Origin: Raillietiella orientalis
Taxonomy: Eukaryota
Assembly (NCBI GenBank): GCA_036172245.1
Contig: JAYWIR010000022.1
Span: 1-64,000, forward strand
Direction: 5' to 3'
Length of the DNA stretch: 64,000 bases
In this document: positions 6,653 through 42,554 of the stretch, piece by piece
How positions within the stretch are numbered: the first letter of the stretch is position 1
Layout: each line of letters starts with the position of its first letter
The notes under the pieces: model-generated
Seen by the model: only the letters and a program-made list of their open reading frames with translations
Databases searched by the model: none
Told to the model about the DNA's origin: nothing
Translations under genes and position numbers: made by a program

Positions 6653-8545
6653 AGAAATCTCCCGGGCTTGATCTGCGGAGATCACGTGGATCTCCTGCAG
6701 CAGCACCAGGTCGAAGGATGCCAGGGTGGCGGCCACGTCACGCCTCTTGCCGTCGTCGCTTAGCCCGTTCACGTTCCAACAGGCGATCAGAAGACGACGG
6801 CGAGAGGCGATTCCCGGCATTATGGCTGGGAAAGTGGCGTCGCGGCACCTGCCGCGGGGCAGGTGTAGGACAGGTCCATCGGTACGAGGACGGAGGCCTC
6901 TTCAGGCGCCTGGGGTACCTGTTCGGCCTCCATCCTCACCATCCCCTCCGTGTCCGAGCGTGGAATTCTCTCGGGCGACGGGTCCCGGGAGTTTCCCACG
7001 CTCATGGCACCCTCGCTACCGGAAGCCATCTCTTCCCCTTCGTCGCGGGAGACGATCTTCCGGGGCATTGTGGACTTTCGTCCAGCCTTTTTGCGGGGTG
7101 CCGCGGAGATGGATGCTTTGTTTCCGGCCTTCACCTCGGGGTCGGAAGAGGCCGACTCCTGAGGGGAAGCCGGACGCCTGACGGCCTTCTTGCCAGCCTT
7201 GAGGGGAACCGGCTGCAACGAGGCAGCCAGCTCCTCCGCGGCGCGCTCGAAGGCGACGTCATCGAGCGTGGGCTCGATGACGGACGCCGCCGCCTCGCTC
7301 CCCTCCTTGTTGACTTTGTCAACGGAGGGTTGAGCAGGGGCAGCAGCGAGTTCTTTAGCGCCGCATTCGTCGATGGCGGGAATCCGCTCTACAACGACGC
7401 AGCAGCTTTTAATTTTTTCGCGGCGCAGAGCGGTTTCGCTCCGTTTCGCCACGTTCTTTCCCTTCTTATGGGAGTTTTTCTTGGGATCGACCTTCTGCCA
7501 CCCTGGCTCTTGACCCTCGCCCTCGACCTTTTCGGCGTTTTTCGCCGGGGTCTCGGGGCTGGCCTTCGCCTTGGTGGCGGAAGTGACCTCCTTAGCAGCA
7601 GCACGAGCTGCCAGCTTTTTCCTCTTTTTAGCCGCGCGCTTTCTCGCGTTTTTCGCGGACACGACGCGGACTGTGTTTTGGGGGCACACCAGACGGGTGT
7701 GCCCCGCTTGTTTGCATTGCTGGCACTGCACGCTCGGACACCTCATTTTAAGGTGACCAAAGCTGCTGCAGCAGCCGCAAAACTTGGGTTTCCCCACGTA
7801 CCACACGTCAACGGATTCACCGTTGACGGTGAGTTTGTGGGGAACCTCACATCCCTCGCGAACCGTCACTCGCGCTGCACCCAGGCCGCCAAGCAACCCG
7901 TCGTAATCGACAAAAGGAGTAGGCTTTCCCCACAGCGCGTGGACAGTTGCGAATTTTTCCAATTCGTTCCGGACGGCCTCCTTCGTCATCCGGAACGTGA
8001 TACCGGTCAGGTGAATGATCACCGACCGGTCTTCAGTAATTGGGAGAAGCCTCCGGCTGCCCATAATTACGGGGGTTCGCAGAAGTCTCTGCGCAAGAGT
8101 TGCCTCCTTGCAGATAACTTCCACAAATTGACCCCCGCTTCTGACGGACATAGCCAGAAGCTCCTCTTTCTGTACGCCGAGAACGCGCATCGCCTGTGAG
8201 AAGGCGCGCGCGTTCTCGGGAGAATATAGACCGCCTACCTTATATAGAAGGGGTGGGTTATACCCCTCCTCCAGGTAAGCGCGCATTTCCGCCATAGCCG
8301 CTGGCGTAGGTGCCGCAGCCACGGCGTTCCAAGCCCTGGGTAGGGCCGGGGGCGCATCCGTGCTGGCGGGAGCCTCCACTGATGCGGGAGCCCCCACCTC
8401 CATCTGCTCCGGGGGCAATGAGGTCATCGCCCCCGGATCCTCACCGGTGGTGGTATCAGGCATTGCTGCCTAATCCTCCACCCACACCACGCACAAGCAC
8501 CAACGGAAATGGAACTCAGGAGCAACGAAAAGACACGTCCGCTCG
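6653..8545 (-). mobile_element. 5' half of a Tx1-like element (copy C): 5' UTR, intact ORF1 and start of ORF2
   Basis: GCGGACGTGT at 8542-8533; ORF1 8463-6820; ORF2 stub MPGIASRRRLLIACWNVNGL...LQEIH cut by the 3' end of copy B. Confidence 0.9.
6820..8463 (-). CDS. ORF1 gag-like nucleic-acid-binding protein, 547 aa (copy C)
   Basis: Two CX2CX4HX4C knuckles (CGCCSSFGHLKMRC, CQQCKQAGHTRLVC); stop overlaps the ORF2 ATG (TAATG). Confidence 0.9.
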   Translation of the reverse strand: MPDTTTGEDPGAMTSLPPEQMEVGAPASVEAPASTDAPPALPRAWNAVAAAPTPAAMAEMRAYLEEGYNPPLLYKVGGLYSPENARAFSQAMRVLGVQKEELLAMSVRSGGQFVEVICKEATLAQRLLRTPVIMGSRRLLPITEDRSVIIHLTGITFRMTKEAVRNELEKFATVHALWGKPTPFVDYDGLLGGLGAARVTVREGCEVPHKLTVNGESVDVWYVGKPKFCGCCSSFGHLKMRCPSVQCQQCKQAGHTRLVCPQNTVRVVSAKNARKRAAKKRKKLAARAAAKEVTSATKAKASPETPAKNAEKVEGEGQEPGWQKVDPKKNSHKKGKNVAKRSETALRREKIKSCCVVVERIPAIDECGAKELAAAPAQPSVDKVNKEGSEAAASVIEPTLDDVAFERAAEELAASLQPVPLKAGKKAVRRPASPQESASSDPEVKAGNKASISAAPRKKAGRKSTMPRKIVSRDEGEEMASGSEGAMSVGNSRDPSPERIPRSDTEGMVRMEAEQVPQAPEEASVLVPMDLSYTCPAAGAATPLSQP

Positions 8546-11500
8546 ACGCTCCGGAATCTCCAGGACTGGGACCTTTTTAAGGAATCGGTCCGGGAGTTCT
8601 GCGAGCAGTTCCCCCTGGACCGCCTGCCCTCCGGATTCGGCGAGGGTCCTCGCAACCATCGGGCCTATTTACAGGCCCGTAGGTACGAGCGAACCCCTAA
8701 TGTCCGTCGCCTGGCCGAGTACCGCGCCGGGGCCGAACGCCAAGCCTGGCAATCCGGGTCGGCCAGCTTGCTGGACGACCAGGGCCGGGAATGTTCGTCC
8801 CCGGCGTCGGTACGGCATCTCGTGCGGAGTTATTATTCCTCCCTTTACGCCAGGGCGCCCCCGGATCAAGATGCCTCTCGGCTCTTGCTTCCAGATGGTG
8901 CCGCGGCAATAGGGGAGGAGCAGTCGTTAAGCCTCGATGAGACTTTTACCACCGGCGAAATTCTCGCCGGTATGAAAAGGCTCAAGAGGCGGAAAGCCCC
9001 AGGGGAAGACGGCTTGCCCGCGAAGTTCTATTCGCGGAAGAGCTGGCACCCCTGCTGCTTCAGCTGACAAGGCTGATCCGAGACGAAGGCGATGTTCCCG
9101 CCTCGTTTCGGTCAGCCAGAGTGAGGCTCCTTCCGAAAGGGGGAGACCTTAGGAATTTGAACAACTGGCGTGCGATCACGATTGTGAATACGGACGCCAA
9201 GTTGGTTGCCGGGCTATGGGCTTCGCGTCTGGGGCAGGTGGCAGAATCCATAATTAGCCCGGAGCAGACATATGCTGTTCCCGGGCGAAGTATGGATGCC
9301 AACCTCTTCTTCGCGAGCACATGGATGCACGCGCAGAGGTGTCAAAATGAAGGGAAAGGAAAAATCGGCAACCCCACTTTGGGGCCGCCAACAGGGCAGG
9401 GAATGGACTCCCGGGCGTGGAGGGGGCCTTAGCGCTCGCAGTCGATCTCCATAAGGCGTTCCACTTTGTTGACCAGGGGCTTTTGTTGGAGCTCCTGGGT
9501 CGCATGGGCTTCCCACCCTCCTTGATTACCTACCTGAGCTCTTGCTGGCGGAATGCGATTATCTCCATCTTTTTCAGTAGTCAGAAGGTGTATGGCGTGC
9601 CGGTGAGGCGGGGCATCAGGCAGGGCGATAGCCTGAGTCCCCTGCTCTTCAGCACCTACTTTGAGTTGGTGCTGAGAGCCTACAGGGTGACTTTGGCCTC
9701 CTTGCCGAGCTCGTGTCCCGGCACGCCCGCCGTAGCAGCCTATGCCGACGACCTTCTGCTCCTGTTACCTATGTCCACCCCGGCAAAGGCGGTCGGAGAC
9801 TTCTTCGATCTGCTCAGCCGTGGGAGCGGACTGCAGGTCCACAGGGCGAAGTCGTCGGTGGTGCCAGTAGGTGCGGCGTGGGCAGGGCAGCAGGACTGGG
9901 TCCGTCTGGGGATCCCCACGGCGAGGTGCCTCAAGTACCTTGGTGTGCCGTTGGGTGACCACTCCCCTGCGGAAGCGTGGTCCAGCTGTCTTCAAAAAGT
10001 TGAGACGGCGATCGGCCCGTTACTGGAAGGCAAGTTTCACTTGCCGGAACGGGCCGCGGTTTGGTACGCTTTTGCGGCCCCCATCCTCCGCTTCTTGCTT
10101 TTTGTTTGCCCCGCCCCCAGAGAATGCAAAAAGAGGACAAAGGACCTCCTCCGCATAGCCCTTTGGGGCAAGGGGAGGCCCCGAGTCCCTCTGAAGGACT
10201 TGTGCGCTCCACGTCGGGACGGCGGCCTAGGCCTCCTGACGCTGGAGCGCGTGGAAATCCAGCTGCGGTGGCGAACCCTCGCCATCGCAGCGAAGATGTG
10301 GAGCACCCCTTGGTGCGTTCCGGCCCGCCTCCTCGCCAGGCGTGTGTCTCGATGCGAAGGACTCGCGTCGTTTCTTCTGCGCCCTGGCCGGAAGATCCGA
10401 AGATGCGGCCTTATGCTCGGACGCATAGCAACCCTGGCGAAGACGAACGGTTGGATGGTTTGTGGCCCCGCCAACTCCTCCGCCTGGTTGGAGGAGTCTG
10501 CTGGCACATGGGCTAAGCAGAACCGGAGGAGTGAAAACAATATGAACTGCCTGCGAACCGGCCCATAAGCCAACCGCACCCTGCGGGAAATACTGGAATT
10601 TCCCAGGAGTCGCAGGTGGGCGTTGACGACCCCCCTTACTACGGCGATGCCCTACCTCCTGAGGGCGCTTCAGGATCGCCAGAAGCCGAGGTGGCAAGTC
10701 ACCTGCCAGATCGCAGGCAGGGAGAAGATGTTAAGCGGCTGGACCACAGGAGAACTGGCGGACGCCACGACCCCGAGCGTCCAGCCGCGTGGATTGATGA
10801 GATGAGGCGAGCTGCTTGCCATCCCTACGGATGTGCTGAAGTGGCCCCCGGTACTGAAGGAATCCAGGATCCTGCCCCTTAAGTGGCAAGAGTCGGCGTT
10901 GCTACTGTTGCACTGGGGTTTACCCTGCAACGCACGCCGCTTCCACTGGACAAGGGGAGCTGTGGATCCTGAGTGTGTCAGGTGCGGAGAGCGGGAATCG
11001 CTCTCCCACCTTATTGTGGACTGTGCTGCCATCCGACCCCTCTGGGAACGGTTCGGGGCGACCCTCGGGCTCCCTACGGGCAGCACCCCCAGAGACGTTC
11101 TTCGGTCCCTCTTCGTGAAGGACGCACTGCAGCCAGCCGCAGCCATCGCAGCCTTTTAGCTGTGTCTGTGGCATCGTGACGGCATGGAGCGACGCCAATA
11201 ACGAAGGAGTGGGTCCACACGCGAGGGATGTCATCCCATACGCCCAACGCTTCATGCGGAGAGCTGCCGGATGGCCCCAACTGGGGAATATACGAACGGA
11301 CCTCGAGGGCTTCCTTCAACGGATGGGCCCTCCTCACAGCGTTTAGTGATCCCTTCCCTGCCCTCCAACTTCTTTTTGTCTGTTTATTTTTTATTTTTCT
11401 TTTTGTTTTATCCCCATCCCTCTTCGCTGCTGAGGAACGCTACGCTGGGCTGCGTCCCGGCGTCCTGGCAGGTCCAGTGTATATGGCCGTGAGCGGGGCC

Positions 11501-11547
11501 TTGTACCGCGGATGTAGAGTTTTAACAATAAACGCCCCGGGCGTACC
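8546..11547 (+). mobile_element. 3' part of a Tx1-like element (copy D): disrupted ORF2, 3' UTR and hairpin end
   Basis: RT motifs in 9121-10568 (DLHKAF, GIRQGDSLSP, YADD); CVRCGERESLSHLIVDC; terminal motif 11527-11543. Confidence 0.9.
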
Positions 11548-14500
11548 CGGGTGTAAACCTCCAAGGCTAACAAAAAGGCAGTTAGGCGTCCGGCCTCCAC
11601 CGAGGGGTCCGTAACTTCCGACCCCGAAGGGCAGGCCGGAAACCAAGTTTCCATCTCCGCGGCACCCCGCCGGAAGGCCGGAAGGAAGTCCAGCAAACCC
11701 TGGAAAGCCCCTCTCCAGGCCGAAGGCGTGGAGATGACTTCCGACTGCGAGGGTGCCATGAGCGTGGGAGAATCCCGGGAATCGTCACCCGAGAGACCAC
11801 CACGCACAGACACGGAGGAGATGGAGGGGGTTGAAGCCAGAAAGGTACCCAAGGTGCCTGAGGAGGCCGAAACCCTAATGGTCATCTCACCCGCCTCGGA
11901 AGAGGCGGGTTCCCCCACACCGTCATCTTCCCGGCAGTAATGCCGGGAATCTGCTCCCGCCGTCGTCTGCGCATCGCCGTTTGGAACGTTCGTCTGAATC
12001 CGGATGGGCCGAATCACGAGCGGGACCTGGTCAACGAGGTGTGCGCGGCGGTGCACACCTGTAATTTGTTGGCCAGTGTACCAGGGATGGAGGACAACAT
12101 CGATCACGTGTTCCTTGACGAGCATCTGTGCACTCGTGTGGGCAGGCGCTGCAAGTTACCGTGCGAGTTGTCCGACCATCGACCAATCGTGATTGAAATC
12201 CTTCCGCGCGACAAGGGACCGCCCTCGTCAGCGTGGCGTTTGCCAGGGGACTGGCTGAAGCTCCCGGACGCGACGGAACATCTCCGCACGTTTATACGGA
12301 GCTTCAGGATGCAGACACTCCAGGATTGGGACCGCTTCAAACGGTCGGTCCAGGAGTTCTGCGACCAGTTCCCTCTGCACCGGCTACCTGCGAGATTTGG
12401 GGACGGGGTACGTAACGAACGAGCCTATCTGCAGGCTCGCCGTTACGCCAGGACCCCCGACATCCGCAGACTGGCGGAATACAAAGCGGGAGCCGAGAGG
12501 CAAGCCTGGCAGTCAGGATCGTCCAGCTTGCTGGACGATCAGGGCCAGGAGCATTCGGCACCCGCTCAGATCTGCGGTCTCCTGCGGCGTTTTTACTCCT
12601 CCCTGTACGCAAGAACGCCTCCCGAGCGGGATTTCTCACGACTCCTGCTTCCGAAAGGCGCTCCTGCGATCGGGGAAGAGGAGAAAAAGTCCCTCGACGA
12701 GCCTTTCACGATGGGCGAAATCATCTCGGCCATCGGAAAGCTCAAGAGGCGCAAGGCTCCAGAGGAGGGCGGCCTGTCCGCGGAGTTTTATCAAACTTTC
12801 GCGGCTGAGCTAACCCCCCTGGTACATCAACTCACCTTGCTGATACGCGAGACAGGTGACGTTCCCGCCTCGTTTCGTTCGGCAAAGGTGCGGCTTCTCC
12901 CTAAGGGAGGAGATCTGAGGAGCATGAACAACTGGCGTCCCATCACTATAGTGAATGCGGATGCCAAGTTGATAGCTAAGGTTTGGGCTGAGCGCTTGGG
13001 ACGGGTTGCAAACGCCTTCATCAGCCCGGAACAGACGTATGCTGTTCCGGGGCGAAGCATGGAGGCGAACCTGTTCCACGCTTCCATCTGGCTAGAGCTC
13101 CAACACGAAAGGGGCTTGATGCGCACCGGGAATTCTGGTGAGTCCGTCAGCCATGCGACGGATGGTCGGATGGGGGAGGCAGCACTTGCGGTCGCTGTGG
13201 AATTGCGTAAAGCATTCGACAGCGTCGACCAGAATCTCCTGCTGGAGCTTTTGGAACGCTTGGGCTTCCCGGCCTCATTATTGGCCTATCTGCGCTCTAG
13301 CTGGCGCGATTCACAAATCAATGTTACTTTCAGCGGGCATACAGTTGACGGCGTGCCGGTGCCACGTGGGATCCGGCAGGGAGACAGCCTGAGCCCCTTG
13401 CTCTTCAGTACCTACTTTGAGTTGGTACTGAGAGCGTACAGGGAAACTCTGGCGCACCTGCCGCATGAATGCGCCGGAACGCCTGCGGTTTCAGCATATG
13501 CGGACGACCTTCTGCTACTGCTCCCTATGTGCACCCCGGCTTCGGCGGTCGAGTTCTTCGACCTGCTGAATCGAGGAACCGGGCTTACGGTAAACAGGGC
13601 GAAGTCGTCCGTGATGCCAGTTGGTGCGGCGTAATCAGGGCAGCAGGACTGGGTCCGTTTAGGGAACCCCACGGTGAGGTACTTCAAGTACCTTGGTGTG
13701 CCGTTGGGGGACTACTCCTTTGCGGAAGCGTGGTCCGGCTGCCTTCAAAAAGTGGAGACGGCTATCGGCCCGTTCCGAGGCGGCAGGTTTTTCCTGCCTG
13801 AACGGGCTGCGGTTTGGAACATGTTCGCGGCTCCTCTCCTCCGTTCCCTGCTTTTTGTTTGCCCCCCCACAGAGAGGATCAAAAAGCGGACGAAGGACCT
13901 CCTCCGTATCGCCTTTTGGGGCAACGGGAGGGCCCGATTCCGCTTAAAGGACTTGTGCGTTCCGAGTCGGGACGGTGGTCTCGGCCTCCTGACACTGGGG
14001 CGGCTGGAGCTGCAGCTCCATTTCCGGATTTTGGCACTTGTGCCGGAGATTTGGTGCACCTGTTGGTGCGTCCCTGCACGTCTCCTCCTTCAGCAAACCA
14101 CCGGCAAGACGGGAGTTACGTCGTTTCTTGCACTCTATCGAAGCCGCATCAACCGATGTGGGCTTCAGCTACGGAGGGTGGCTGCGCTGGCAAGGAAAAA
14201 TCAAGGATGGATCACCTGTCTCCCCGCGAACGGTAGTGCCTGGTTGCAGGAAACCGTTCGTACGTGGGGACAGTTCGGTATGCAACCCTCCCATCAGGAA
14301 CGAAGGTTCCTGTTTGGGTGTTACAGAAGTTGCACGCTCCGTGAGATCCTGAAGGATCCTAAGAAGAAAGCGTGGTCAGGAAGAACCCCCCTCGCTGCTG
14401 CGCTGGACTCCCTAGTGGAACATCAGGACAGCGATGTTGCGGCGAAGTGGGAGGTTACAATAAAAATCTCCGGTAAGGAGAAGAAGCAGAGAGAGTGTAA

Positions 14501-15311
14501 GACGGGCCAGCTAACTGATGCTGCGACCCCGAGTACGCCTCCTAATGGACTTCTGCTCTGGGGAGCGCTGCTGGGTGTTCCGATTGAACATCTGAAGTGG
14601 CCCCCGGTTCTTATGGACACTTTGATCCTCCCCCTTAAATGGCAAGAGTCGGCATTCCTGTTGCAGCACTGGGGAGTCCCCTGCAACGCCCGTCGACACC
14701 ACTGGACCTGGGGAGCGGTGGATCCCAATTGTGTAAGGTGCGAGGAACGGGAGTCCCTCCCCCACCTCCTAGTGGATTGTGTTGCCCTTCGGCTCCTTTG
14801 GTTCCGCTTTGTCGCGGTCATAGGTATCCCTTGCGGCAACCCCAGGGACGCACTGAAAGCCTTCTTCGTTGCCGACGCCCTCCGGCCAGCGTCCTCGATA
14901 GCAGCCTTGTGTTGCCTTCGTGGGATCTTTGCCGCATGGAGCACGGCGACGGGAGGACCTAGCGATCAGGACGCCATCCAGTGCGCCTCCCAATTCCTAA
15001 GGAGGGCGTCGCGATGGCCCCACCTGGATGTTCACAACAAACAAGAGCTTGCCAGAATCCTGAGAGGGATGATGCGGCCCCAGCAGCATCAGTGATCCCT
15101 TCCCGTTCCCTCCCACCCTTTGTTTCTTTTTGTTTAGTTTTTTGTTTTCCTTCTTTCCCCTGCTGCCTTGGTGGACCGTACCGGTTTAGAAACCGGTAAA
15201 TTGGCAGGCTCCGTGGTTCTTCGCTTCTGGCTGGAGCATTGCAACAGCCAGAAATAATTTGTTTATCAAGTTTATTTTTTAATAAACGACCCGGAGAAAT
15301 CCGGGTGAAAA
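11548..15311 (+). mobile_element. Tx1-like element (copy I): ORF1 C-terminus, ORF2 with in-frame APE deletion and a premature stop, hairpin end
   Basis: TAATG at 11938-11942; ORFs 11940-13634 and 13674-15095; terminal motif 15281-15307. Confidence 0.9.
15281..15307 (+). terminator. Conserved 3'-terminal AATAAA plus hairpin motif of the Tx1-like family
   Basis: AATAAACG-ACCCGGA-GAAA-TCCGGGT-G; homologues at 6627, 11527, 18434 (-), 24508, 33147 and 35749. Confidence 0.75.
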
Positions 15312-15570
15312 TCGAATGCTTTCCGCAAGTCGATTGCGACCGCAAGGGCTCCCTCCCCCACTCGACCATCCGACGCCTTGCCGGCGCACGGTCCGGAATT
15401 TCGGCTGCGCACCAAGCTCCTTTCTTGTTGGTGCTCTAGCCAGGTGGAAGCGTGGAACAGGTTCGCCTCCATGCTTGGCCCGGGAACGGCATATGTCTGT
15501 TCCGGGCTGATGAAGATGATAGCAACCCGTCCCAACCTCTCTGCCGAAACCTTAGCTAGCAACTTGGCGT
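15312..15570 (-). mobile_element. Internal RT fragment of a Tx1-like element (copy J)
   Basis: AKLLAKVSAERLG...SPEQTYAVPG...AIDLRKAFD on the minus strand. Confidence 0.85.
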
Positions 15571-15580
15571 GCGGACGTGT
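15571..15580 (+). promoter_or_regulatory. Conserved 5'-terminal motif GCGGACGTGT (DPE-like internal promoter element)
   Basis: Recurs at 8542-8533 (-), 19068-19077 (as TCAGACGTGT), 26814-26823 and 33199-33208, always ~70-95 nt before ORF1. Confidence 0.65.
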
Positions 15581-15735
15581 TTTTTCCGCGCTCCTCTGCG
15601 CCTGTTGTAATGCGTTCCTTCGTTAGTGTTTGTGTGTGGACCATCTGCTGTGTCCAATAACAGAAATGCCTGAGGACACCGCGATGGAAGTCGGCGGGGG
15701 AGAGGATTGTTCCTCTCCCCATCCCATTGAGGTGG

Positions 15736-15870
15736 GGGCAACCACACCCTTGAAAAAGAGGGCAACCGCCCTCGTGGAAAAGGCAGCAACCACACCCTTG
15801 AAAAAGGGGACTACCGCCGCCTTGGAAAAGGGCGCAACCGCCCCCTTGAAAAAGAGGGCAACCGCGTCCC
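15736..15870 (+). repeat. 24-bp tandem repeat (~5.5 units) in ORF1 of copy G
   Basis: Encodes ATTPLKKR/ATALVEKA/ATTPLKKG/TTAALEKG/ATAPLKKR. Confidence 0.8.
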
Positions 15871-18402: not shown

Positions 18403-19065
18403 GCTTGAAACCCGGGTGCGCCGGGACGTTTATTCTCACGAATAAACCTATATAATCTGTAACTGGACCAGTAGTCCAGCCACGCCCTGGAAAGATATGC
18501 TTGCCGGGCTACCGGTGCGCAGACCGGCGCGGTCGACCTCGGCAGCAGAGGGGAGGGGGAACGAAACAAAAAAAAAACAAAAAAATAAACAAAAATCAGG
18601 GAGGGAGCAGGAAGGGATCACAGTCTGCTGGGAGGGTCCGTCATCCTCTGGAGGATGCCGGCAAGCTGTTTCTGCATGTGTGGTTCTAGATGGGGCCATC
18701 GCGTCGCCATCCTGAGGAAACGGGCGGCATACACGTTGGCATCCCTGTCGCTGGATCCTCCCGTCTCTTTGCTCCATGCCACGACGATCCCGCGTAGGCA
18801 GCACAGGGCTGCAAGCGAGGCCGCTGGAGGCAGGGCGTCACGGACGAAGAGGGGGCGCAAAGCGTCCCTGGGGTTGCCTCCGGGGATCCCCAGGGCTGCG
18901 GCAAAGCGTTCCCACAAGGGACGGAGTGCAACACAATCCACTAACAGGTGGGGGAGGTATTCCCTCTCCCCGCACCTGACACAATTAGGGTTGACACCCC
19001 CCCGCGTCCAGTGGTGTCGGCGGGCGTTGCAAGGAAGCCCCCAATGCAACACCAGCAGTGCCGAC
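18403..19065 (-). mobile_element. 3' end of Tx1-like copy F (Cys/His domain, 3' UTR, hairpin end)
   Basis: LHWGLPCNARR...CVRCGEREYLPHLLVDC on the minus strand; AATAAACGTCCCGGCGCACCCGGGTT at 18434-18409. Confidence 0.9.
19054..19065. repeat. Left target-site duplication of copy E
   Basis: AGCAGTGCCGAC, identical to 24538-24549. Confidence 0.9.
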
Positions 19066-19140
19066 GGTCAGACGTGTTCTCTGCGCGCTCCTGACTCGCT
19101 CGACTTTATTGGTGTAGTGCGGTGCATCAGTGGTCGGGGG

Positions 19141-20742: not shown

Positions 20743-23700
20743 TGCCGGGACTCGCCACCTGCCGTCAAATACGCATCGCCAGCTGGAACGTCAACGGGCT
20801 TTACGATGACGGCAGGAGACGAGACATAGCTGCCACCTTGCAAGCCTTCGACCTCGTGCTGCTGCAGGAGATCCATGAGATTTCCGCAGAACATGCGCGG
20901 GAGATCGAATGGATAGCAGGTGGTCAGCTTATGTGGCGATGCGGCCACCGCCGTACGCGCGGGGTCGCTTTCCTTCTGAAGCCTGCCTTACAACGCGCGG
21001 TGCGGAAAGTTCGTTTCGATGAGGCAGGTCGGGTAGGGCAAATCACCTTCAGGTGGTCCGACTCCATCAATCTTGTCGTCACGAACGTGTACGCGCCGAG
21101 CGGCGGTCACGCGCGCGTGGCACGGACGGCGTTTTTCCGTGCGTTCAAGCGCGACTGGCTGTCGGAGGCAGGCGCGCGCACGGCGCACCTGATAGCCGGC
21201 GATTTTAATATTCGCCTGCTATCAGGTGCGGCGAGGACAGAGGCCACCCCGGTTAACGAGATGTGCGCTGCGGTGCACGCATCCAACTTGTTAGCCGGGG
21301 ATACCGGGATGGAACGCAGCGTGGACCACGTCTTCCTCGACGATCACCTGCGCTGTCGCGTGGGCAGGCGAGGTAAGATACAGTCCGCAGTCTCCGACCA
21401 CTCCCGTGTGGAACTCGTCATTCGCCCGCGCGACAGGGGGCCCCCCGCGCAGGCGTGGCGTCTACCGGGGGACTGGCTGACCAAGCCAGGCGCAGCGGAA
21501 CACCTCCGCGCGTTCTTGCGAGGTTTCAGCCTGCAGACGCTCGACGACTGGGACGATTTGAAAGTCTCGGTGCGAGAGTTCTGCCAACAGTTCCCCATGG
21601 ACCGTCTCCCGAAAGGATTTGGAGAAGGTGTTCGGAACGATAGGGCTTACCTGCAGGCCCGTCGTTACTCCCGAACACCAGACGTCCGAAGACTGGCGGA
21701 ATTTAAAGCCGGGGCCGAGCGGCAGGCCTGGCAATCGGGGTCGCCCAGCCTGCTGGACGACGAAGCCCAAGAGCACTCGGCCCCGGCAGAGGTGAGTAGC
21801 CTAGTGCACGGCTATTATTCTTCCCTGTACACCAGGGTGCCTCCGGACCGGGAATTTTCCCAATTTTTGCTTCCGGACGGTGCCCCGGCGATCGGGGAAG
21901 AAGAGAGAGTACGCCTGGACGAGCCTTTCACGATGGGTGAAATCATCACCGCAATCGGGAAGCTCAAAAGGCGGAAGTCACCGGGGGAAGACGGCCTGCC
22001 CGCGGAGTTTTTTCAGTGCTTCGCGGCGGAGCTGGCTCCCCTGGTGCAGCGGCTAACGCTGCTGATCCGGGAGACAGGAGACGTTCCCGCCTCCTTCCGA
22101 TCGGCACGTATGCGTCTCCTACCGAAAGGAGGAGACTTACAGAACCTCGGCAAATGGCGTCCGATTACCGTACTAAACGCGGACGCCAAGCTGGTTGCGA
22201 AGCTATGGTCGGAGCGAATGGGGCGGATGGCGGAAAGCTTCATCAGCCCGGAGCAGACCTACGCTGTTCCCGGGCGAAGCATGGACGCCAACCTGCTCTT
22301 CGCGAACACCTGGTTCGAACTTCAAAGAACCAGAATGAATGGCAGCCCGATTTGCGGGACGTCCGCTGGTGGTTCGCGGGATAGTCGGGAGAGAGAAGGG
22401 GCCCTCGCGGTCGCTGTCGATTTGCGGAAAGCATTCGACAGTGTCGACCAGGAGCTCCTGCTGGAGCTTCTGGAGCGCTTGGGCTTCCCGGCCTCCTTAT
22501 TGGCCTTTCTGCGCTCTTGCTGGCGCGACGCGCTGAACAACATTTCTTTCAGGGGAAGGAACGTGTTCGGTGTGCCGGTGCGCCGCGGGATACGGCAGGG
22601 TGATAGCTTGAGCCCCTTGCTCTTCAGCACCTACTTCGAGTTGGTGCTGAGGGCATTCAGGGAGACTCTTGGTCGCCTGCCGCGCGTGCCCAGGTACAAC
22701 GGCCTTGGCGGCGTATGCGGACGATCTTCTGCTGCTGCTCCCCATGTCCACCCCGGCGTCGGCGGTCGAAAACTTTTTCGAGCTGCTGCGTCGCGGGACA
22801 GGACTGGAGGTGAACAGAGCAAAGTCGTCCGTTGTTGCAATCGGTTCCTCGTGGGCAGGGCAGCTAGACTGGTCTCGCTTGGGGATCCCCACGGTACGGT
22901 ACCTTAAGTACCTCGGTGTGCCGTTGGGGGACTACTCCCCAGCGGAACAATGGTCTTGCTGCCTCCAAAAGGCCGAGAGAGCGATCGGCCCGTTCCTGGA
23001 TGGCAAGTTCTTCTTGCCGGAACGGGCCGCGCTGTGGAACACTTTCGTGGCCCCCCTGTTTCGCTCCTTGCTTTTTGTTTGTCCCCCACCCCGTGGTGTG
23101 AGAACACGTACAAAGGACCTCCTCAGAATCGCCATCTGGGGCAGAGGAAGGCCCCGCGCGCGTTGGAAGAACTTGTGCGCCCCTCGTCGCGATGGGGGCC
23201 TTGGCCTCCTCACGCTGGAGCGCCTCGAACTGCAGCTGCAGTTCCGAACAATCGCCCTAGTGGCGAAGTTGTGGAGCGCCAGCTGGTGCGAGCCTGCACG
23301 ATGCCTGGTTCAGCGAGTCGGCGGCTGCGCGGGACTGTCTACCTTCCTAGCGCGCCGCAAACGCAGGTACCTGTTCCACTGCGGACTGGCTCTACGGCGA
23401 GTGGCGAAGCTGACCAGGAAGAACACCTGGATCTCCTGCCGGCCCGCGAACGGCACTTCCTGGTTGCAGGAAAGCCTTCGCACGTGGGCCCAGATCGAGG
23501 AAGCGAGCCCGGAGTTGCGGCAGCGAATGCTGCACTCCTATCATAAGAGCCGCTCGCTGCAGGACATCATCGTGCAGCCCGCCTTGAGTGCGTGGGCTGA
23601 GAAGACCTCCCTTGCCACAGCTCTGTCTCACCTCAAAGAACATCTGGGCAGTAGCCAGCCGGCCATGTGGGAGGTCCGGTGTACGATCAGGGACACTGAG

Positions 23701-24291
23701 AAAGAACAAGGTGGTTGGACCACGGGTCAGCTTGCTGATGCCGCGATCCCAAGTTCCCCACCGAGAGGACTGTTGCGCTGGGGCGAGCTGCTGTGCATCC
23801 CGCGGGATGAACTCGAGTGGCCCCCAGTGCTGAGGAATACTCGGGCCCTTCCCCTAAAGTGGCAGGAGTCGGCGTTCCTGGTGTTGCACTGGGGACTCCC
23901 CAGCAACGCCCGCCGCTCTCATTGGACGAGGGGGGTTGTGGACCCAAACTGTGTCAGGTGCGGGGAACGAGAAACTCTCCCGCACCTGCTCGTTGACTGT
24001 GTTGCCCTCCGGCCCCTGTGGTTGCGCTTTGCAACAGCCGTTGGTGTACCCTTGCACGCTCCCAGAGACGTTTTAAAGCGCCTCTTCGTGCGCGACGCCC
24101 TTTCGCCTGCCGCAGCCCTTGCAGCCCTCTGCTGCCTACGAGGGATTGTAGCGGCTTGGAGCACCGCCACTGGTGGACCGAACGATAGGGACATCTTGTG
24201 CTACGCCCTGCGCTTCCTGAGGACGGCAGCCAGATGGACCCATCTGGGACACATGCAGTTTGAACTTGCCGGCATCCTGCAAAGGATGTAG
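20742..24291 (+). CDS. ORF2 APE-RT polyprotein of copy E, with one apparent frameshift near 22685
   Basis: ORF 20742-22907 (APE and RT up to GDSLSP) continues in ORF 22669-24291 (YADD, YLGV, Cys/His motif). Confidence 0.9.
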
Positions 24292-24537
24292 AGGACGTCT
24301 CCAGCGGAACGTGATCCCTTCCCCAACCCCTCCCTGCTTTTGTAAATAGTGTTTTCTTTTTGTTTTTTTCTATTTGTCCCTTTCCCCTCCGCTGCCGAGT
24401 CGACCTTGGGAGCCTGCGTGCTGCCCACTCGGCGAGTTCAGAAGAACATGTTCTGAACACTGTAGGGGCGATAGCCCTACACTTGCTTGTTTATTTTTTA
24501 TTAAAGAAATAAACGCCCCTGCGCAGCCGGGTGTAAA

Positions 24538-24549
24538 AGCAGTGCCGAC
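24538..24549. repeat. Right target-site duplication of copy E
   Basis: AGCAGTGCCGAC; removing copy E restores the host ORF2 reading KWQQSALLVLHWG. Confidence 0.9.
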
Positions 24550-26796
24550 TGTTGCCACTTCATGGGGAGGGTGCGCGAGTCCATGAGCAGTGGGGGCCAC
24601 TCGAGATGTTCCTCTGCAACATCCAGTAGCTCTCACAAGCGCAACAGTCCATTTGGGGTGGTCCTCGGGATCGCAGCGTTGGTGAGCTGACCCGTTCTCC
24701 AATCCCCGATCTTCTTTGCCCTTCTGGCGATCTTGACAGTAACCTCCCATTGTGCCGCGACGTCGCTGCCCAGATGTTCCCGTAGGGTAGGCAGTACCGC
24801 AGCAAGGGAGGTTCTTTGCGCCCACGCTCTCCTTCGGGGATCCTCGATGATTTCTCGGAGCGTGCGGTGGGCATGCGGCCCGAACAAAGCTATTCGCTCG
24901 TGTTGCGGGCTCTGCTCCTGAATCATCGCCCACGCGCGCACGGTTTCCTGCAGCCAGGCAGGACCGTTCGCGGGGCGTACGAGGATCCGCGCCGAGTTGT
25001 TCTTGACGAGCTTCGCCGCCCTCCGAAGTTGAAGTCCGCAGTGGCAGATGGGGCTTCGGAGTGCAAAGTAGGACGAGAGTCCCGCATTGCCGGTGGCCCG
25101 CTCGACGAGGAGACGTGCAGGGAGGCACCAAGGGGTGCACCAATTTTCTGCCATAAAGGCAACAACTCGGAACTGGAGCTGTAGCTCCAGCCGCTCCAAC
25201 GTCAGGAGGCCCAGACCACCATCCCGACGAGGAGCGCACAAGTCCGAAAGACGGACTCGGGGCCTCCCTCTGCCCCGAAGGGCGATCCTCAGGAGGTCCT
25301 TCGTCCTCTTCTTTGACTCCGCTGAGGGGGGGCAAACAAAAAGCAAGGGGCGAAGGAGGGGTGCCGCAAACGCGTTCCACGCCGTAGCCCGTTCCTGCAA
25401 GTAGAACCTGCCGTCCTGGAACGGGCCGATCGCCGCCTGAGCCTTCTGAAGGCAGCCGGACCACGCTTCCGCAGGGGAGTAGTCCCCCAACGGCACACCA
25501 ACGTACTTCAAGTACCTCACCGTGGAGATCCCCAAACGGACCCAGTCCTGCTGCCCTGCCCACGCCGCTCCGACTGGCATTACGGACGACTTCGCCCTGT
25601 TCACCGTCAGTCCTGTTCCACGACTCAGCAGGTCGAAGAAGTCCTCGACCGCCGAGGCCGGGGTGTACATAGGCAGCAGCAGCAGAAGATCGTCCGCGTA
25701 CACCGAAACCGCAGGCGTACCGGGACAATCGCACGGCAGGTGTGCCAGAGTCTCCCTGTACGCTCTCAGCACCAATTCGAAATAGGCGCTGAAGAGCAAG
25801 GGGCTGAGGCTGTCTCCCTGCCGTATGCCGCGTCGCACCGGTACGCCGTACACGGTGGATCCACTAAGAAAAACGTTAATAAGCGCGTCGCGCCAGCTGG
25901 AGCGCATGTAGGCCAGCAAAGAGGCCGGGAAACCCAAGCGTTCCAGAAGCTCCAAAAGGAGATTCTGGTCGACGCAATCGAATGCTTTATGCAAATCGAC
26001 TGCGACTGCGAGAGCTCCTCTCCCCTCCCGACCATTTCGTCCCCCACCGACGGACGCACCGGAATTCCGGTTGCTTATTATGCTCCTTCCTTGTTGGAGC
26101 TCTAACCATGTGGAAGCGTGGAACAGGTTCGCCTCCATGCTTCGCCCCGGAACAGCATACGTCTGTTCCGGGCTGAAGGCGTTTGCAACCCGTCCCAAGC
26201 GCTCAGCCCAAACCTTAGCTATCAACTTGGCATCCGCATTCACTATAGTGATGGGACGCCAGTTGTTCATGCTCCTCAGATCTCCTCCCTTAGGGAGGAG
26301 CCGCACCTTTGCTGAACGAAACGAGGTGGGAACGTCACCTGTTTCGCGGATCAGCAAGGTGAGCTGATGTACCAGGGGAGTAAGCTCTGCCGCGAAAGTT
26401 TGATAAAACTCCGCAGGCAAGCCGTCCTCCCCTGGAGCCTTTCGCCTCTTGAGCTTTCCGATGGCCGAGAGGATCTCGCCCATCGTGAAAGGCTCGTCGA
26501 GGTTCCTTTTCTCCTCCTCCCCAATTGCTGGAGCACCTTCCGGAAGCAGGAGTCGTGAGACAGCCTGCTCCGGAGGCGCCCTGGCGTACAGGAAGGAGTA
26601 AAATTTCCTCACTATCCCGCGTTTCTGAGCGGGAACCGAGTGCTCCCGGCCCTGGTCGTCCAGCAAACTGGCCGACCCGGATTGCCAGGCTTGCCTCTCG
26701 GCTCCCGCTCGAAACTCTGCTAACCTGCGCATGTCGGGGGTTCTCGCGTAACGTTGGGCCTGAAGATAGCATCTTTCGTTACGCGGCCCCTCCCCA
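24538..26796 (-). mobile_element. RT-containing middle part of Tx1-like copy F
   Basis: 699-aa ORF 26732-24633 with WRPITIVN, DLHKAFD, GIRQGDSLSP, YADD. Confidence 0.9.
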
Positions 26797-29700
26797 ACTC
26801 CCTCTCCTCGAGAGCGGACGTGTTGTTCCGGCGCTCCGCCAACGAGCAGCGGAAAGCGGTTTTTTTGGGTTCAGTGTGTGCTTTTTCACATCGTTGGTGT
26901 CCGATGGCATCGCTGCCAGAGGACACCACGATGGAGGTAGGCGTGAGCGAGGCTAGCCCCCCCCACGACCTACAGAATCAGGGGCATCCGCCCCGGAATC
27001 GCCCTTGTCGCCCAAGACGAGGAGCTGGAGCGCCATGGTCGCCGCGCCGAGCGCGGAAACCTTGGCTGAGCAAGCGGCCTACAGGGCCTCCGGATATAAA
27101 CCATCCCTGGTTTATAAGGTAGGAAACCTCTTCGACGGTCGCACCGCGCGTGCCTTTAGCAAGGCACTACAGGAATTCCCCGTGCGTGAGGAGGATCTTG
27201 ACGGCCTCGCCGTACTCAGCGGGGGGCAACGCCTGGAGGTCGTCTGCAAAGACGTAGCCCTAGCGCAGCGCCTCATCAACACCCCGCTGAATGTGGCTGG
27301 CCGAAAGATCCTACCCGTTAGCATGGACCGCTCCGTAGTGGTCCATCAAACGGGGATCACGAACCGCATGACGCGCTCTGCGGTGAAAGCGGAATTGAGG
27401 AAATACGGAGATGTGCACGCGCTGTGGCCAAAGCCAACCATTTTTGACGGCTATAACAGCCTCTTTGGTGGCCAGGCAGCAGCGCGTGTCACTGTGAACG
27501 AGGGTGCTGGGTTACCCCACAAACTGGAGATCAAGAAGGAGCCCGTCGACCTCTGGTACGTGGGGAAACCCCGCTATTGTGGCTACTGCGATACAGTAGG
27601 GCATGTGCGCAGGCGGTGCCCGAATATCGAGTGCCACTTGTGCGGGGAAAAGGGACACGTCCGTCGTGTGTGCCCTAAACGCCCCACCCCGGTGCCACCT
27701 GCTGCCAAAAAGGCACAGGCGAAAAAGATGAATAAGGTCGAAAGACCTCATCGCGAGAATGGCCGGCCCCAGCAGCCTTCTCCTCCTCCTCCAACCGAGG
27801 CGGCGGCGGAAAAAACCGCGAAAGACGCGGGCGAGGAAGAAGGATGGACCCTGGTAAAGGCCAGAAAAGAACCCAAAAAGGGTTCACAAGAGAAGGCGGA
27901 GAAAAAGACGGTCGCGAAGGCGGAAAAACCTGTCCCGCGATCTAAAACTCTCCGCGAGTGCTCGGTAGCACTGGAGCGCATCAGCGTTCCCGAGGCTGCC
28001 ACTCGGGGCGACGAGCCTCCCTTCGCCGTTTCCGCCGCGCCCGAGGTTCGCTACGGCGAACCCTCTGTTTGCACAGAGGGTGAGACGCGCGACGCGCTCG
28101 CCGCCGGCGAGGACGCCGCCTCCGCGAAGGCGGCGGAGGAGCTCGCGGCCACGCTGGCTGAGCGTGAGAACCCCTCGCGCAAGGCCGTGCGAAGGCCGGC
28201 TCCAGTAAAGAAGGCCCCCGCAGGTGAGTTAGAACTGGGGGCCGGAAGTACATCCTCCTCCTCGGAGGCACCCCCCGGAAGACGGGACGCAAGTCCCAAA
28301 AGCCGAGGAAGCGCCTCCCCTCCACGAGCGAGGAGAAGCAGGAAGTCGCCGGCAGCGTGGGAATCCCGGAGGGGGAGCTCCCACGCGCGGAAGCCGTCGA
28401 GCAGGACACCCCCATGGAGGAGGGTGAGCAGGGGGGCGAAATCCTCCCTGCCGTCGCGAATCCTGAAGACCCCACCCTATGGAGGAGGGCCAGCAGGTAG
28501 GCGCGACCCCACCTGAGGGTGAACCGCCCGACGCGCCGTCGCCGATGGAAGAGGGTGGCCAGGTGCTAGAGGCACCTGTCCCTCCTCCTCCACCTAGCGT
28601 CCCGCCCCAACAGGTGGCGGACGCCGCACAGCCGATTTCCCAGGAATAACACCTGGGCTCGCCTGTCGCCGTCGAATCCGCGTGGCCAGTTGGAACGTCA
28701 ACGGGCTGCGCGACGACGGCAACAGACGAGATACGGCCGACACCCTGCGTGACTTCGACCTGGCCCTGCTGCAGGAGATCCACGTGATCACCTCGGCAGA
28801 CGTCCAGGAGATCGAGGCGATCGCGGGGGGTCGACTGTATTGGCGATGCGGCGCCCGCAACACCTGCGGGGTCGCGTTCTTCGTCAAGCCGGCCATCGAC
28901 GCTGCCGTGAAGGGCGTACGCTTTGATGACGACGGTCGGGTCGGTCAGCTGATTCTCAGCTGGTCCGACTCGATCGAATTGATCGTCACGAACGTGTACG
29001 CCCCGAGCGGAAAAGGGGGATACAGCGACCGTACCAGGCTGCTGGAAACCCTGAAGCGCGATTGGCTGGCCGACACGAATGTGCGGAAGGCACACCTGAT
29101 AGCTGGAGACTTCAATCTCCGTCTGCTGTCAGGTGAGCCCGAAGCACAAGAACGCACGGCCAACGAGTTGTGCGCTGCCATGCGCACGCGCAACTTGTTG
29201 GCAGACGCGGAGGGAATGGACCGCAGCATCGACCACTTCTTCCTGGATGTCGACCTGTGCTCGCGGGTCGGCAAACGGGGAAAAGTTGCGTCGACGCTGT
29301 CGGACCATTCCAGGATCATCGCCGAGGTTTGCCCGCGCGACAAAGGACCCCCGTCCAGGGCGTGGCGGCTGCCTGGGGACTGGACGCGGCTCTCAGGTGC
29401 GAAAGAACACCTTCGCGAATTCCTGAGAGGCGTCACCCTCCGCAGTCTCCAAGACTGGGACCTCTTCAAGGCCTCGGTCCGCGAGTTCTGCGAGGAGTTT
29501 CCCCTGCACCGCCTGCCCCCCGGATTCGGGGAGGGGGCTCGGAACCATCGGGCTTATCTACAGGCCCGCCGGTACGAGAGGACCCCGAATGTCCGTCGCC
29601 TCGCGGAATATCGAGCCGGGGCCGAACGCCAAGCCTGGCAATCCGGGTCGGCCAGCTTGCTGGACGACCAGGGCCGGGAGCGATCCGCCCCACCCGCGAT

Positions 29701-32818: not shown

Positions 32819-32819
32819 A

Positions 32820-33178: not shown

Positions 33179-33179
33179 G

Positions 33180-40480: not shown

Positions 40481-40484
40481 AGAG

Positions 40485-42418: not shown

Positions 42419-42554
42419 CTTTGAGAAGCGCGACTCTTGCTCCTAAGGGTGTGCCTGCGCAATCATAGCCGTATACACAACGGCAACTAATCACTTTTTC
42501 TCATTTATGAACTGGTCTGTGATTTATCTAATAAAGCTCAATTACAGCGAAAGA

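What the first reader, a model, noticed from the sequence alone, without database searches (positions are those of the whole stretch)
6653..26800. Self-nesting with strong antisense bias: seven of seven element ends landing in a family ORF2 are in opposite orientation
Junctions seen: B-3' into C (6653), C-5' into D (8545), I-3' into J (15311), G-5' into J (15571), F-3' into G (18403), E into F (both ends, with TSD) and H-5' into F (26797). All are antisense. The same-sense junctions (11547 and ~35777) fall in ORF1, and no host DNA is evident for ~38 kb. Possible causes are self-targeted insertion, a strand-biased nick preference, or selection for dsRNA/antisense-producing arrangements. Only E has both flanks verified, so some junctions may come from later deletions. 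The divergent copy P near 40485 may be a same-sense exception.
Basis: partly seen in the sequence, partly recalled or inferred. Interest (0 to 1): 0.7.

Follow-up and report, generated by a model that had tools for sequence, protein, structure and literature searches.

The report
Nested LINE pile, antisense run unproven
A 38-kb stretch made almost wholly of copies of one L1-like jumping-gene family inserted into each other; the run of opposite-strand junctions is real, but it rests on too few independent events to show a true orientation preference.

Summary
All seven listed junctions exist at the stated coordinates and orientations. 95% of 2680-41308 is family DNA. The family is an L1-like non-LTR element. 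ORF1 has CCHC knuckles and ORF2 has APE and RT domains. The 3' end is AATAAA plus a hairpin with no poly(A), and the 5' end carries GAGCGGACGTGT. There are four subfamilies.

Two insertions have target-site duplications:
- E in F, 11/11 bp.
- A minus-strand element F+C in a plus-strand element G+D, 13/15 bp. Its halves lie in permuted order (C-D left of G-F), so junctions 8545 and 18403 are one event or one hot spot, not two independent events.

Counter-examples are P 5' into N ORF2 (same sense, 40485), two same-sense landings in ORF1, and one head-to-tail pair.

Binomial tests give 7/7 p=0.016, 7/8 p=0.07 and 7/10 p=0.34. An absolute plus-strand bias fits about as well: 12 of 15 elements (p=0.035, my arithmetic) and 8 of 9 inserts.

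I found no shared target motif and no strand asymmetry that explains the pattern. A genome-wide tally was impossible.

Verdict: an ordinary, rearranged transposon graveyard. The antisense bias is suggestive but unproven.

The parts
700..2109 (+). A: 5' half of ORF2 (APE endonuclease) of a different, distant LINE. The truncated 5' end of B abuts it in the same sense.
   Evidence: Pfam Exo_endo_phos E=4e-18. 25% aa identity to H ORF2 residues 14-468.
2680..6653 (+). B: subfamily B copy, 5'-truncated at the ORF2 start (E 1625), with a canonical 3' end.
   Evidence: nhmmer; 3' motif at 6627-6651; tree B+M support 100.
6657..8545 (-). C: 5' end, ORF1 and the first ~66 codons of ORF2 (E 5-1841) of a subfamily I element; probably the 5' part of F.
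   Evidence: 5' motif at 8533; groups with I' at support 99.
8546..11557 (+). D: subfamily H, ORF2 from about aa 280 (E 2463) to a canonical 3' end; probably the 3' part of G. Its first 15 bp (8546-8560) form the TSD copy ACGCTCCGGAATCTC.
11558..15311 (+). I: subfamily I copy starting in ORF1 (E 1310), with an internal deletion E 1727-2163 at 11990/12006 and a canonical 3' end.
15312..15570 (-). J: 259-bp ORF2 fragment (E 3114-3391) of subfamily I, lying between the I 3' end and the G 5' end.
   Evidence: (84% identity to I, 81% to F).
15571..18402 (+). G: subfamily H, 5' end through ORF2 aa 284 (E 2477). Its last 15 bp (18388-18402) form the TSD copy ACCCTCCGCAATCTC.
18403..19065 (-). F, 3' part (E 4803 to the 3' end), subfamily I, with a canonical 3' end at 18410-18434.
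19066..24538 (+). E: full-length copy and sole member of subfamily E, flanked by a perfect 11-bp TSD (19055-19065 and 24539-24549). ORF2 carries one frameshift.
24539..26796 (-). F, middle part (E 2548-4823), 85% identical to I.
26797..32327 (+). H: subfamily H copy with a full 5' end and an open 519-aa ORF1. ORF2 is open for 938 aa, then frameshifted. The copy is cut at E 5337, so it has no 3' end.
32328..32837 (-). K: old ORF2 fragment (E 4080-4678), only about 61% identical to every other copy.
32838..33178 (+). X: 341-bp 5'-truncated subfamily H 3' end. It is 78.5% identical to the matching part of H, so it is a separate copy.
33179..35777 (+). L: subfamily H copy, head-to-tail behind X. 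It has a full 5' end and a gap in element coordinates from E 1789 to E 4792 at about 35120.
35778..38464 (+). M: subfamily B copy running from the ORF1 tail to E 3817.
38951..40484 (+). N: diverged copy (E 568-2143), broken after the GDF motif of ORF2.
40485..41308 (+). P: diverged 5' end and ORF1 start. This is the same-sense landing in N ORF2.

Best explanation
The region is a graveyard nest of an L1-like non-LTR retrotransposon family. Copies of four subfamilies inserted by target-primed reverse transcription into earlier copies. The inferred order is:
- J(-) received I(+) and G/D(+).
- G/D(+) received F/C(-).
- F/C(-) received E(+), H(+) and B(+).
- K(-) received X(+).

The pile was later reshaped by at least one duplication of the composite and by several deletions. 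The run of antisense junctions is a small-sample feature of this history. It rests on at most six or seven independent events, and only two of them are verified by TSDs. It is not evidence of an orientation rule.

Shown: the element anatomy, the junctions, the TSDs and the subfamilies. Inferred: the order of events, and the duplication that placed C-D to the left of G-F.
For: Family identity:
- APE plus RT domains in ORF2 (Pfam).
- The best solved relative is human LINE-1 ORF2p, E=2.8e-46, against 1.5e-14 for R2.
- Two CCHC knuckles are readable in ORF1.
- Conserved termini.

Nesting:
- E in F has an 11/11 TSD.
- G ends and D starts on the same 15 bp, matching 13/15. The F 3' end lies on G and the C 5' end lies on D.
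- C groups with I' and F with I in subfamily I. G and D group with H in subfamily H.
- C and F cover non-overlapping parts of the element (E 5-1841 and E 2548-5465).

Rearrangement:
- The order C-D ... G-F is permuted.
- H lacks its 3' end.
- X and the matching part of H are only 78.5% identical.

Counter-examples to an antisense rule in the same window:
- P into N ORF2, same sense.
- D into I ORF1 and L into M ORF1, both same sense.
- X|L head-to-tail.

Statistics: 7/8 p=0.07, 7/10 p=0.34.

No shared target motif was found.

Precedents in print:
- Tandem multiplication of a nested composite that carries the same insertion at the same position (PMC2672092, passages).
- Nested insertions in opposite orientation and tail-to-internal junctions in fly non-LTR families (PMC5932611, passages).
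Against:
- Minus-strand family DNA is only about 5.6 kb of about 38 kb now, yet it received 6 of the 9 plus-strand inserts.
- The split between ORF1 (2 of 2 same sense) and ORF2 (7 of 8 antisense) is suggestive.
- Two site recurrences hint at non-random targeting. The first is the 15-bp site used at both 8545 and 18403. The second is one Logan contig of run X1 that joins a G-like stretch ending at 17764 to an F-like inverted 3' end, with 31 other letters between (table 5c). Base 17764 is homologous to C's break at 6657.
- The duplication needed to explain the permuted order is inferred, not seen.
Confidence: 0.55

Rival explanations
1. A real insertion-time antisense bias. The endonuclease or reverse-transcription step prefers the sense strand of family ORF2 as the primer strand. 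One way this could arise is if target copies are transcribed, as with the bias of human L1 against sense insertion in transcribed genes. Another is a small number of preferred sites that lie on the antisense side of ORF2.
For: - 7 of 8 canonical ends in ORF2 are antisense.
- The 15-bp site is used at both 8545 and 18403.
- An X1 contig shows another inverted 3' end at the base homologous to the B|C break.
- B and F flanks begin GAAATC and GAGATT.
- L1 shows an insertion-time bias against sense orientation in transcribed genes (PMC5717806, abstract).
Against: - A transcription-coupled bias should hold in ORF1 too, but 2 of 2 ORF1 landings are same sense. P into N ORF2 is also same sense.
- GARATY is not enriched on the ORF2 antisense strand. 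In the six ORF2 segments counted it occurs 28 times on the sense strand and 18 on the antisense strand.
- The antisense sites show no consistent local A/T bias.
- The other copies that span the 15-bp site (B, I, E, H) are not interrupted there.
Confidence: 0.17
2. A regional absolute-strand bias rather than a bias relative to the target. Almost all insertions retained in this region are on the plus strand, as in a uni-strand small-RNA cluster or under a replication-direction effect. They look antisense only because the old scaffold elements (J, F/C, K) happen to be minus.
For: - 12 family elements are plus (B, G/D, I, E, H, X, L, M, N, P and the fragments at 42133-42407 and 43049-43346). 3 are minus (F/C, J, K). 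The two-sided binomial is about 0.035, my arithmetic; one search gives 0.021 for 13/16 when the doubtful fragment at 54856 is included.
- 8 of 9 inferred inserts are plus (p=0.039).
- The same-sense cases are all plus-into-plus.
Against: - F/C is a minus-strand insert.
- It does not explain why plus inserts hit the small minus fraction so often.
- This grouping is also post hoc.
- No RNA data were available.
Confidence: 0.15
3. Survivorship. Same-sense nested copies form direct repeats and are erased or fused by recombination, whereas inverted ones persist. On this view old nests become enriched in antisense arrangements with no bias at insertion.
For: Same-sense copies show gaps in element coordinates that could be scars: L jumps from E 1789 to E 4792, I from E 1727 to E 2163, and M from E 2575 to E 2891.
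Against: Most nested pairs come from different subfamilies that are only 63-75% identical. That is too diverged for homologous recombination even at the time of insertion. The gaps join non-homologous positions.
Confidence: 0.06
4. The permuted order of the split elements, and so part of the pattern, is an assembly error in a repeat-rich region.
For: C-D lies about 7 kb to the left of G-F, although one insertion should give G-F...C-D. No long read or contig spanning the region was available; the X1 contigs shown are about 260-390 bp (table 8).
Against: Copies in the window are only 72-85% identical, so collapse or mis-joining among them is unlikely. Every junction on the path D|I|J|G sits at a canonical element end.
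Confidence: 0.07

Closest known systems
Zepp / ZeppL clusters of L1-type LINEs in green algae (Coccomyxa, Chlamydomonas)
   Same: These are clusters made almost only of one LINE family, GC-richer than their surroundings and built by insertion into existing copies. Zepp elements are 61% GC against a 53% genome (PMC3446292, passages; PMC8226300, passages). Here the nest is about 60% GC against 35-46% in the right flank, and 95% of it is family DNA.
   Different: Zepp arrays are described as tandem arrays made mostly of 3' ends, because of 5' truncation (PMC8226300). Here at least five copies keep full 5' ends and the orientations are mixed. The elements have no poly(A) tail. Clade membership, the one-cluster-per-chromosome pattern and a centromere link were not testable. 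The original Zepp papers were not held.
Orientation bias of human L1 against sense insertion in transcribed genes
   Same: It is an antisense excess of a LINE relative to a transcription unit, attributed in part to the insertion process (PMC5717806, abstract).
   Different: The target there is a host gene, not a family copy, and the bias is established on large data sets. Here there are at most 9 events, and the ORF1 landings go the other way.
Heterochromatic transposon nests and tandem or nested junction classes in Drosophila
   Same: [quoted passage not shown] A nested composite can be multiplied so that the same insertion recurs at the same position (PMC2672092, passage). That fits X|L, D|I and the shared 15-bp site.
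   Different: No periodic array is visible inside this window, and the duplication is inferred from one permuted pair only.
Site-specific LINEs (R1, R2, Tx1 group; recalled, not from a call)
   Same: They have a fixed site and a fixed orientation relative to the target, which would explain two breaks at one 15-bp site.
   Different: The seven 3' junctions lie at different positions and share no motif. Four other copies carry the 15-bp site uninterrupted.

Membership tests
APE-type non-LTR retrotransposon, L1-like | ORF2 with an N-terminal APE endonuclease followed by a reverse transcriptase | tested here: met
   PF03372 at 47.9-66.4 bits and PF00078 at 53.6-77.2 bits, both above their cut-offs, in several copies. 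Human L1 ORF2p is the best solved relative, E=2.8e-46.
APE-type non-LTR retrotransposon, L1-like | ORF1 nucleic-acid-binding protein (here of the CCHC-knuckle type) | tested here: inconclusive
   PF00098 scores 20.0 bits against a cut-off of 20.8. Two CX2CX4HX4C motifs are readable in the translation. The only PDB hits are weak knuckle proteins.
APE-type non-LTR retrotransposon, L1-like | Target-site duplications and frequent 5' truncation | tested here: met
   TSDs of 11 bp (11/11) and 15 bp (13/15). B, I and X are 5'-truncated.
APE-type non-LTR retrotransposon, L1-like | Poly(A) or A-rich 3' tail | tested here: not met
   The ends are AATAAACG, a CCCGG..CCGGG hairpin, and a 2-11 nt variable tail (GA, GAAAA, GTAAAA, GTAAAC, GGCAAC, TTCAAGC).
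APE-type non-LTR retrotransposon, L1-like | C-terminal zinc-binding motif of ORF2 | tested here: inconclusive
   PF13966 scores 20.9 and 23.0 bits against a cut-off of 27.5.
Zepp-type self-nesting LINE cluster | Cluster composed almost only of the family, with copies inserted in copies | tested here: met
   95.1% coverage of 2680-41308. E in F and F/C in G/D both carry TSDs.
Zepp-type self-nesting LINE cluster | Tandem arrays made mostly of 3' ends | tested here: not met
   Five full 5' ends (C, G, E, H, L) are present, and element orientations are mixed, 12 plus and 3 minus. Only X|L is head-to-tail.
Zepp-type self-nesting LINE cluster | One cluster per chromosome, or a centromeric location | not testable with these tools
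   No genome is held.
Site-specific LINE | One defined target sequence and a fixed orientation | tested here: not met
   The seven 3' flanks differ. The sites lie at E 1310, 1841, 2477, 3391 and 4813, at the L 5' end, and in the M ORF1 tail.
Uni-strand small-RNA (piRNA-type) cluster | Strand-biased transposon fragments together with strand-specific small RNAs | not testable with these tools
   The strand bias of 12 plus to 3 minus was seen. No RNA run was found: the only holder is one DNA run kept as contigs.

The most novel reading that the evidence does not exclude
The family, or at least its subfamily I, preferentially inserts into the antisense side of its relatives' ORF2 at a few recurrent sites (E 1841 and E 2463-2477). 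One subfamily would then disrupt another while building inverted-repeat nests that could feed double-stranded RNA silencing. This would be a LINE whose preferred target is its own kin, in a fixed orientation.
Probability: 0.13. Interest if true: 0.65.

Novelty: new member of a known kind. Interest (0 to 1): 0.3.

Why it matters
If the bias were real, it would show that a LINE can sense the strand of its own relatives. That would bear on how transposon-only centromere-like or small-RNA-producing islands are built. As it stands, the window gives three things:
- A well-resolved example of a self-nested pile of a previously unrecorded L1-like family. Its closest database protein is 68% identical and comes from one metagenome contig. 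All other hits are 25% identical or less.
- A caution that junction counts in a nest overstate the number of independent events.
- A concrete pair of sites to look for genome-wide.

Tried and rejected
Routes that gave no usable data:
- Genome-wide tally: no genome is held.
- The earlier-findings index had nothing on this genome, this sequence or these words.
- The metagenome scan gave 7 loci, all 35% identical or less over short stretches and none of this family. I did not use them.
- One DNA run (X1, share 0.19) was laid on 7001-27000 at 80% likeness. 730 contigs were laid and those shown are about 260-390 bp. The 15 joints shown (of 40) are skips or go-backs between the same element positions of different copies. 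None changes strand, and 25 joints and 507 loose ends were not shown. No orientation tally was possible.
- Host identification: the 509-aa ORF at 61797-63326 had no homologue. Rfam found nothing. The protein atlas gave only generic LINE clusters.

Explanations tested and rejected:
- Twin priming as the cause of inverted neighbours. C (subfamily I) and D (subfamily H) belong to different subfamilies, and K is about 61% identical to everything.
- H and X being one element with a long duplication. The two repeats are only 78.5% identical.
- A large duplication visible inside the window. The left 2.8 kb has no non-family match elsewhere in the window.
- An A-rich target preference that switches with the AT skew. 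The ORF1 sense strand is A-rich (skew +0.12 to +0.33) and both ORF1 landings are same sense. But ORF2 skew is about 0, and the four antisense 3' sites have A minus T counts of -1, -2, +1 and -1 over 20 nt.
- A GARATY target motif.
- CpG decay as an age ranking. CpG observed/expected is 0.86-1.15 in all copies, so it is uninformative.

Papers not held: the two original Zepp papers. No supplements were opened.


Full report
WHAT THE REGION IS

The first ~41 kb of the window is 54-66% GC. The rest is 35-53% GC.

The long open frames in the GC-rich part carry an APE-type endonuclease (PF03372) followed by a reverse transcriptase (PF00078). They are preceded by a second frame with zinc knuckles. 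Two CX2CX4HX4C motifs can be read in the ORF1 translation.

Among solved structures, ORF2 is by far closest to human LINE-1 ORF2p (E=2.8e-46, against 1.5e-14 for R2). In the large protein collection, the only close relative is one 619-aa protein at 68% identity from a 2.9-kb metagenome contig. Everything else is 25% identical or less (fish, Xenopus, nematode LINE proteins). So this is an L1-like family that is poorly represented in public data.

No whole genome is held for the window.

ELEMENT ANATOMY

Five plus-strand copies and one minus-strand copy end in AATAAACG, a CCCGG..CCGGG hairpin and a short variable tail. There is no poly(A). A pattern search found 5 exact matches against 0 expected. 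E carries the same end with one base changed.

Five copies begin with GAGCGGACGTGT or a close variant: C, G, E, H and L.

E (19066-24538) is full length and flanked by a perfect 11-bp duplication, GCAGTGCCGAC. I used it as the coordinate system, written "E n". The nhmmer query was 19066-24531.

MAP (with 26, 42, 49)

- B: 2680-6653, plus, E 1625 to the 3' end.
- C: 6657-8545, minus, 5' end to E 1841.
- D: 8546-11557, plus, E 2463 to the 3' end.
- I: 11558-15311, plus, E 1310 to the 3' end, with a deletion of E 1727-2163.
- J: 15312-15570, minus, E 3114-3391.
- G: 15571-18402, plus, 5' end to E 2477.
- F: 18403-19065 and 24539-26796, minus, E 2548 to the 3' end.
- E: 19066-24538, plus, lying inside F.
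- H: 26797-32327, plus, 5' end to E 5337.
- K: 32328-32837, minus, E 4080-4678.
- X: 32838-33178, plus, E 5118 to the 3' end.
- L: 33179-35777, plus.
- M: 35778-38464, plus.
- N: 38951-40484, plus.
- P: 40485-41308, plus.
- Two small plus fragments at 42133-42407 and 43049-43346.

Family hits cover 95.1% of 2680-41308. The only gap that is not an untranslated region or an ORF1 tail is 38465-38950.

Trees of three element regions give four subfamilies:
- Subfamily I: I, F, J, C and the ORF1 piece of I.
- Subfamily H: H, D, G, L, X.
- Subfamily E: E alone.
- Subfamily B: B and M.
- N and P are more distant.

CHECKING THE OBSERVATION

Each is a canonical 5' or 3' terminus abutting the ORF2 of a copy on the other strand. 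The two same-sense junctions lie in ORF1. The D 3' end meets I at E 1310. The L 3' end meets the lysine- and alanine-rich tail of M's ORF1, which carries the EDGW motif that H ORF1 also shows. The absence of host DNA over ~38 kb is also correct. As a description, the finding holds.

WHY SEVEN IS NOT SEVEN

First, E supplies two of the ends.

Second, G stops and D starts on the same 15 bases of ORF2: ACCCTCCGCAATCTC against ACGCTCCGGAATCTC, 13 of 15 matching. H reads ACCCTCCGCAGTCTC at the same place. The 3' end of minus-strand F sits on G, and the 5' end of minus-strand C sits on D.

C and F are both subfamily I and cover non-overlapping parts of the element. G and D are both subfamily H, and each is about 83-84% identical to H in the segments flanking the site. 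This is what one minus-strand element (F+C) inserted with a 15-bp TSD into one plus-strand element (G+D) looks like.

One thing does not fit: C-D lies to the left of G-F, whereas a single insertion predicts G-F...C-D. Two readings are possible:
- The composite was duplicated after the insertion, and the window shows the tail of one copy and the head of the next. A fly nest with the same insertion at the same position in each unit of a multiplied composite is a published precedent (PMC2672092, passage).
- This site is a recurrent target.

My estimate is about 50% duplication, 30% hot spot and 20% assembly error or something else. Under either of the first two readings, 8545 and 18403 are not independent trials.

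COUNTER-EXAMPLES AND FURTHER JUNCTIONS

P's diverged 5' end at 40485 lands in N's ORF2, directly after the GDF motif (aa ~173), in the same sense.

X and L are head-to-tail. B's truncated 5' end abuts a different LINE (A) in the same sense.

On the antisense side there is one more junction. The 5'-truncated X abuts K, an old minus fragment that is only about 61% identical to all other copies. The H|K junction is not at an element end (H stops at E 5337) and must be a deletion scar.

STATISTICS (two-sided binomial)

- 7/7: 0.016
- 6/6: 0.031
- 7/8: 0.070
- 7/10: 0.34
- 7/11: 0.55
- The two TSD-verified events alone, 2/2: 0.5

The ORF2-only framing was chosen after seeing the data.

A different framing is about as strong. 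12 family elements are plus and 3 are minus (about 0.035, my arithmetic; 13/16 gives 0.021 if the doubtful fragment at 54856 is counted). 8 of 9 inferred inserts are plus (0.039). So [quoted passage not shown] fits about as well as "inserts go antisense".

Against pure chance, the minus DNA is a small part of the family DNA and yet received six of the nine plus inserts.

LOOKING FOR A MECHANISM

The sequences just past the seven 3' ends are:
- GAAATCTCC
- CTCCAAGGC
- TCGAATGCT
- GAGATTGCG
- GCAGTGCCG
- GCAAATCCC
- CCGAGGCCT

They share no motif. A tentative GARATY, taken from B and F, occurs 28 times on the sense strand and 18 times on the antisense strand of the six ORF2 segments counted. That is the wrong direction for an antisense preference.

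The ORF1 sense strand is strongly A-rich (AT skew +0.12 to +0.33, and up to +0.53 locally). Both ORF1 landings are same sense and in A-rich tracts. That would fit an A-rich target preference. But ORF2 skew is about zero, and the four antisense 3' sites have A minus T counts of -1, -2, +1 and -1 in 20 nt. Composition therefore does not explain the ORF2 pattern.

A transcription-coupled bias like that of human L1 in genes (PMC5717806, abstract) would predict antisense landings in ORF1 as well. That is not seen.

Loss of same-sense nests by recombination is unlikely. Most insert-target pairs come from subfamilies that are only 63-75% identical.

Twin priming is excluded for C|D (different subfamilies) and for K|X.

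WHAT THE ONE PUBLIC RUN ADDS

Run X1 (DNA, Logan contigs) holds part of the stretch (share 0.19). Laid at 80% likeness, 730 contigs fit: 41 at 99% or more and 436 under 90%. So the family has further copies in that organism. The contigs shown are about 260-390 bp. The 15 joints shown (of 40) are switches between paralogues at matching element positions.

One row is different. A contig at depth 4.3 runs along G to 17764 and continues, after 31 other letters, at 18410 in the inverted 3' end of F (table 5c). Base 17764 aligns with 6657, the exact base at which C is broken by B's 3' end. The 31 letters do not look like B's end read in reverse. This is either another inverted 3' end at the same ORF2 position in another locus or a structural variant of this locus. 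It is a single contig, and I treat it as a lead only.

COMPARISON WITH KNOWN SYSTEMS

The closest analogue in behaviour is the Zepp/ZeppL group of L1-type LINEs. These form GC-rich clusters of nested copies, thought to be centromeric, by targeting existing copies (PMC3446292 and PMC8226300, passages). Those arrays are described as tandem and made mostly of 3' ends. This nest keeps many full-length 5' ends and mixes orientations. Clade membership was not tested, and the original Zepp papers were not held.

My three literature searches for an orientation rule of LINE-in-LINE insertion listed no paper reporting one. That is a statement about those searches only.

VERDICT

As evidence for an orientation preference it is weak: at most 6-7 independent events, 2 of them verified, at least 3 same-sense cases in the same window, a post hoc category, and an equally good absolute-strand reading.

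The most likely account is an old, self-nested and rearranged LINE pile. A real antisense or site-preferring behaviour is not excluded; I put it at about 13-17%. It is cheaply testable once the genome is in hand.

Noticed in passing
window 43999-45067 (+): An ORF matching the replication protein of circular ssDNA viruses (PF02407 Viral_Rep, E=2.6e-15). The next frame (44699-45067) holds a GNAGKT P-loop-like motif. It looks like an integrated, degraded Rep gene in the AT-richer flank.
   Followed up: partly
window 42447-42935 and 49344-50093 (+): Two ORFs share a long conserved stretch (..SALLPDLDGNIEVGLTTGTD..GIY.LFTY.LIRYRKVN..PDGDWKES..) and have no Pfam match. This is an unidentified repeated gene or element.
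   Followed up: no
window 45645-46241 (+): A reverse-transcriptase fragment of a different retroelement (PF00078, E=4.9e-16; YADD motif) that does not belong to the nested family.
   Followed up: no
window 700-2109 (+), possibly also 54856-55642: A second, distant LINE (A) with an APE domain, 25% identical to the family's ORF2. A weak DNA match links 1670-1924 to 54885-55136.
   Followed up: partly
window 15738-15865: A 48-bp tandem duplication in the 5' untranslated region of G (80 bp at 83.75% identity between 15738-15817 and 15786-15865).
   Followed up: no
window 18114-18402: An X1 contig of 300 letters (depth 16, about 85% alike) fits exactly from 18114 to the G|F break at 18402. Four contigs have loose ends just before 18114. 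So this 289-bp piece of ORF2 may exist as a separately repeated unit (tables 7 and 8).
   Followed up: no
window 61797-63326 (+): A 509-aa open frame rich in K, S and E, in 35-38% GC DNA. It has no homologue among longer proteins and no convincing Pfam match. It may be a host exon or a chance frame.
   Followed up: partly
window 1-41308 versus 42000-64000: CpG observed/expected is 0.86-1.15 in all family copies, against 0.69-0.85 in the AT-richer flank. So the nest shows no CpG decay.
   Followed up: no
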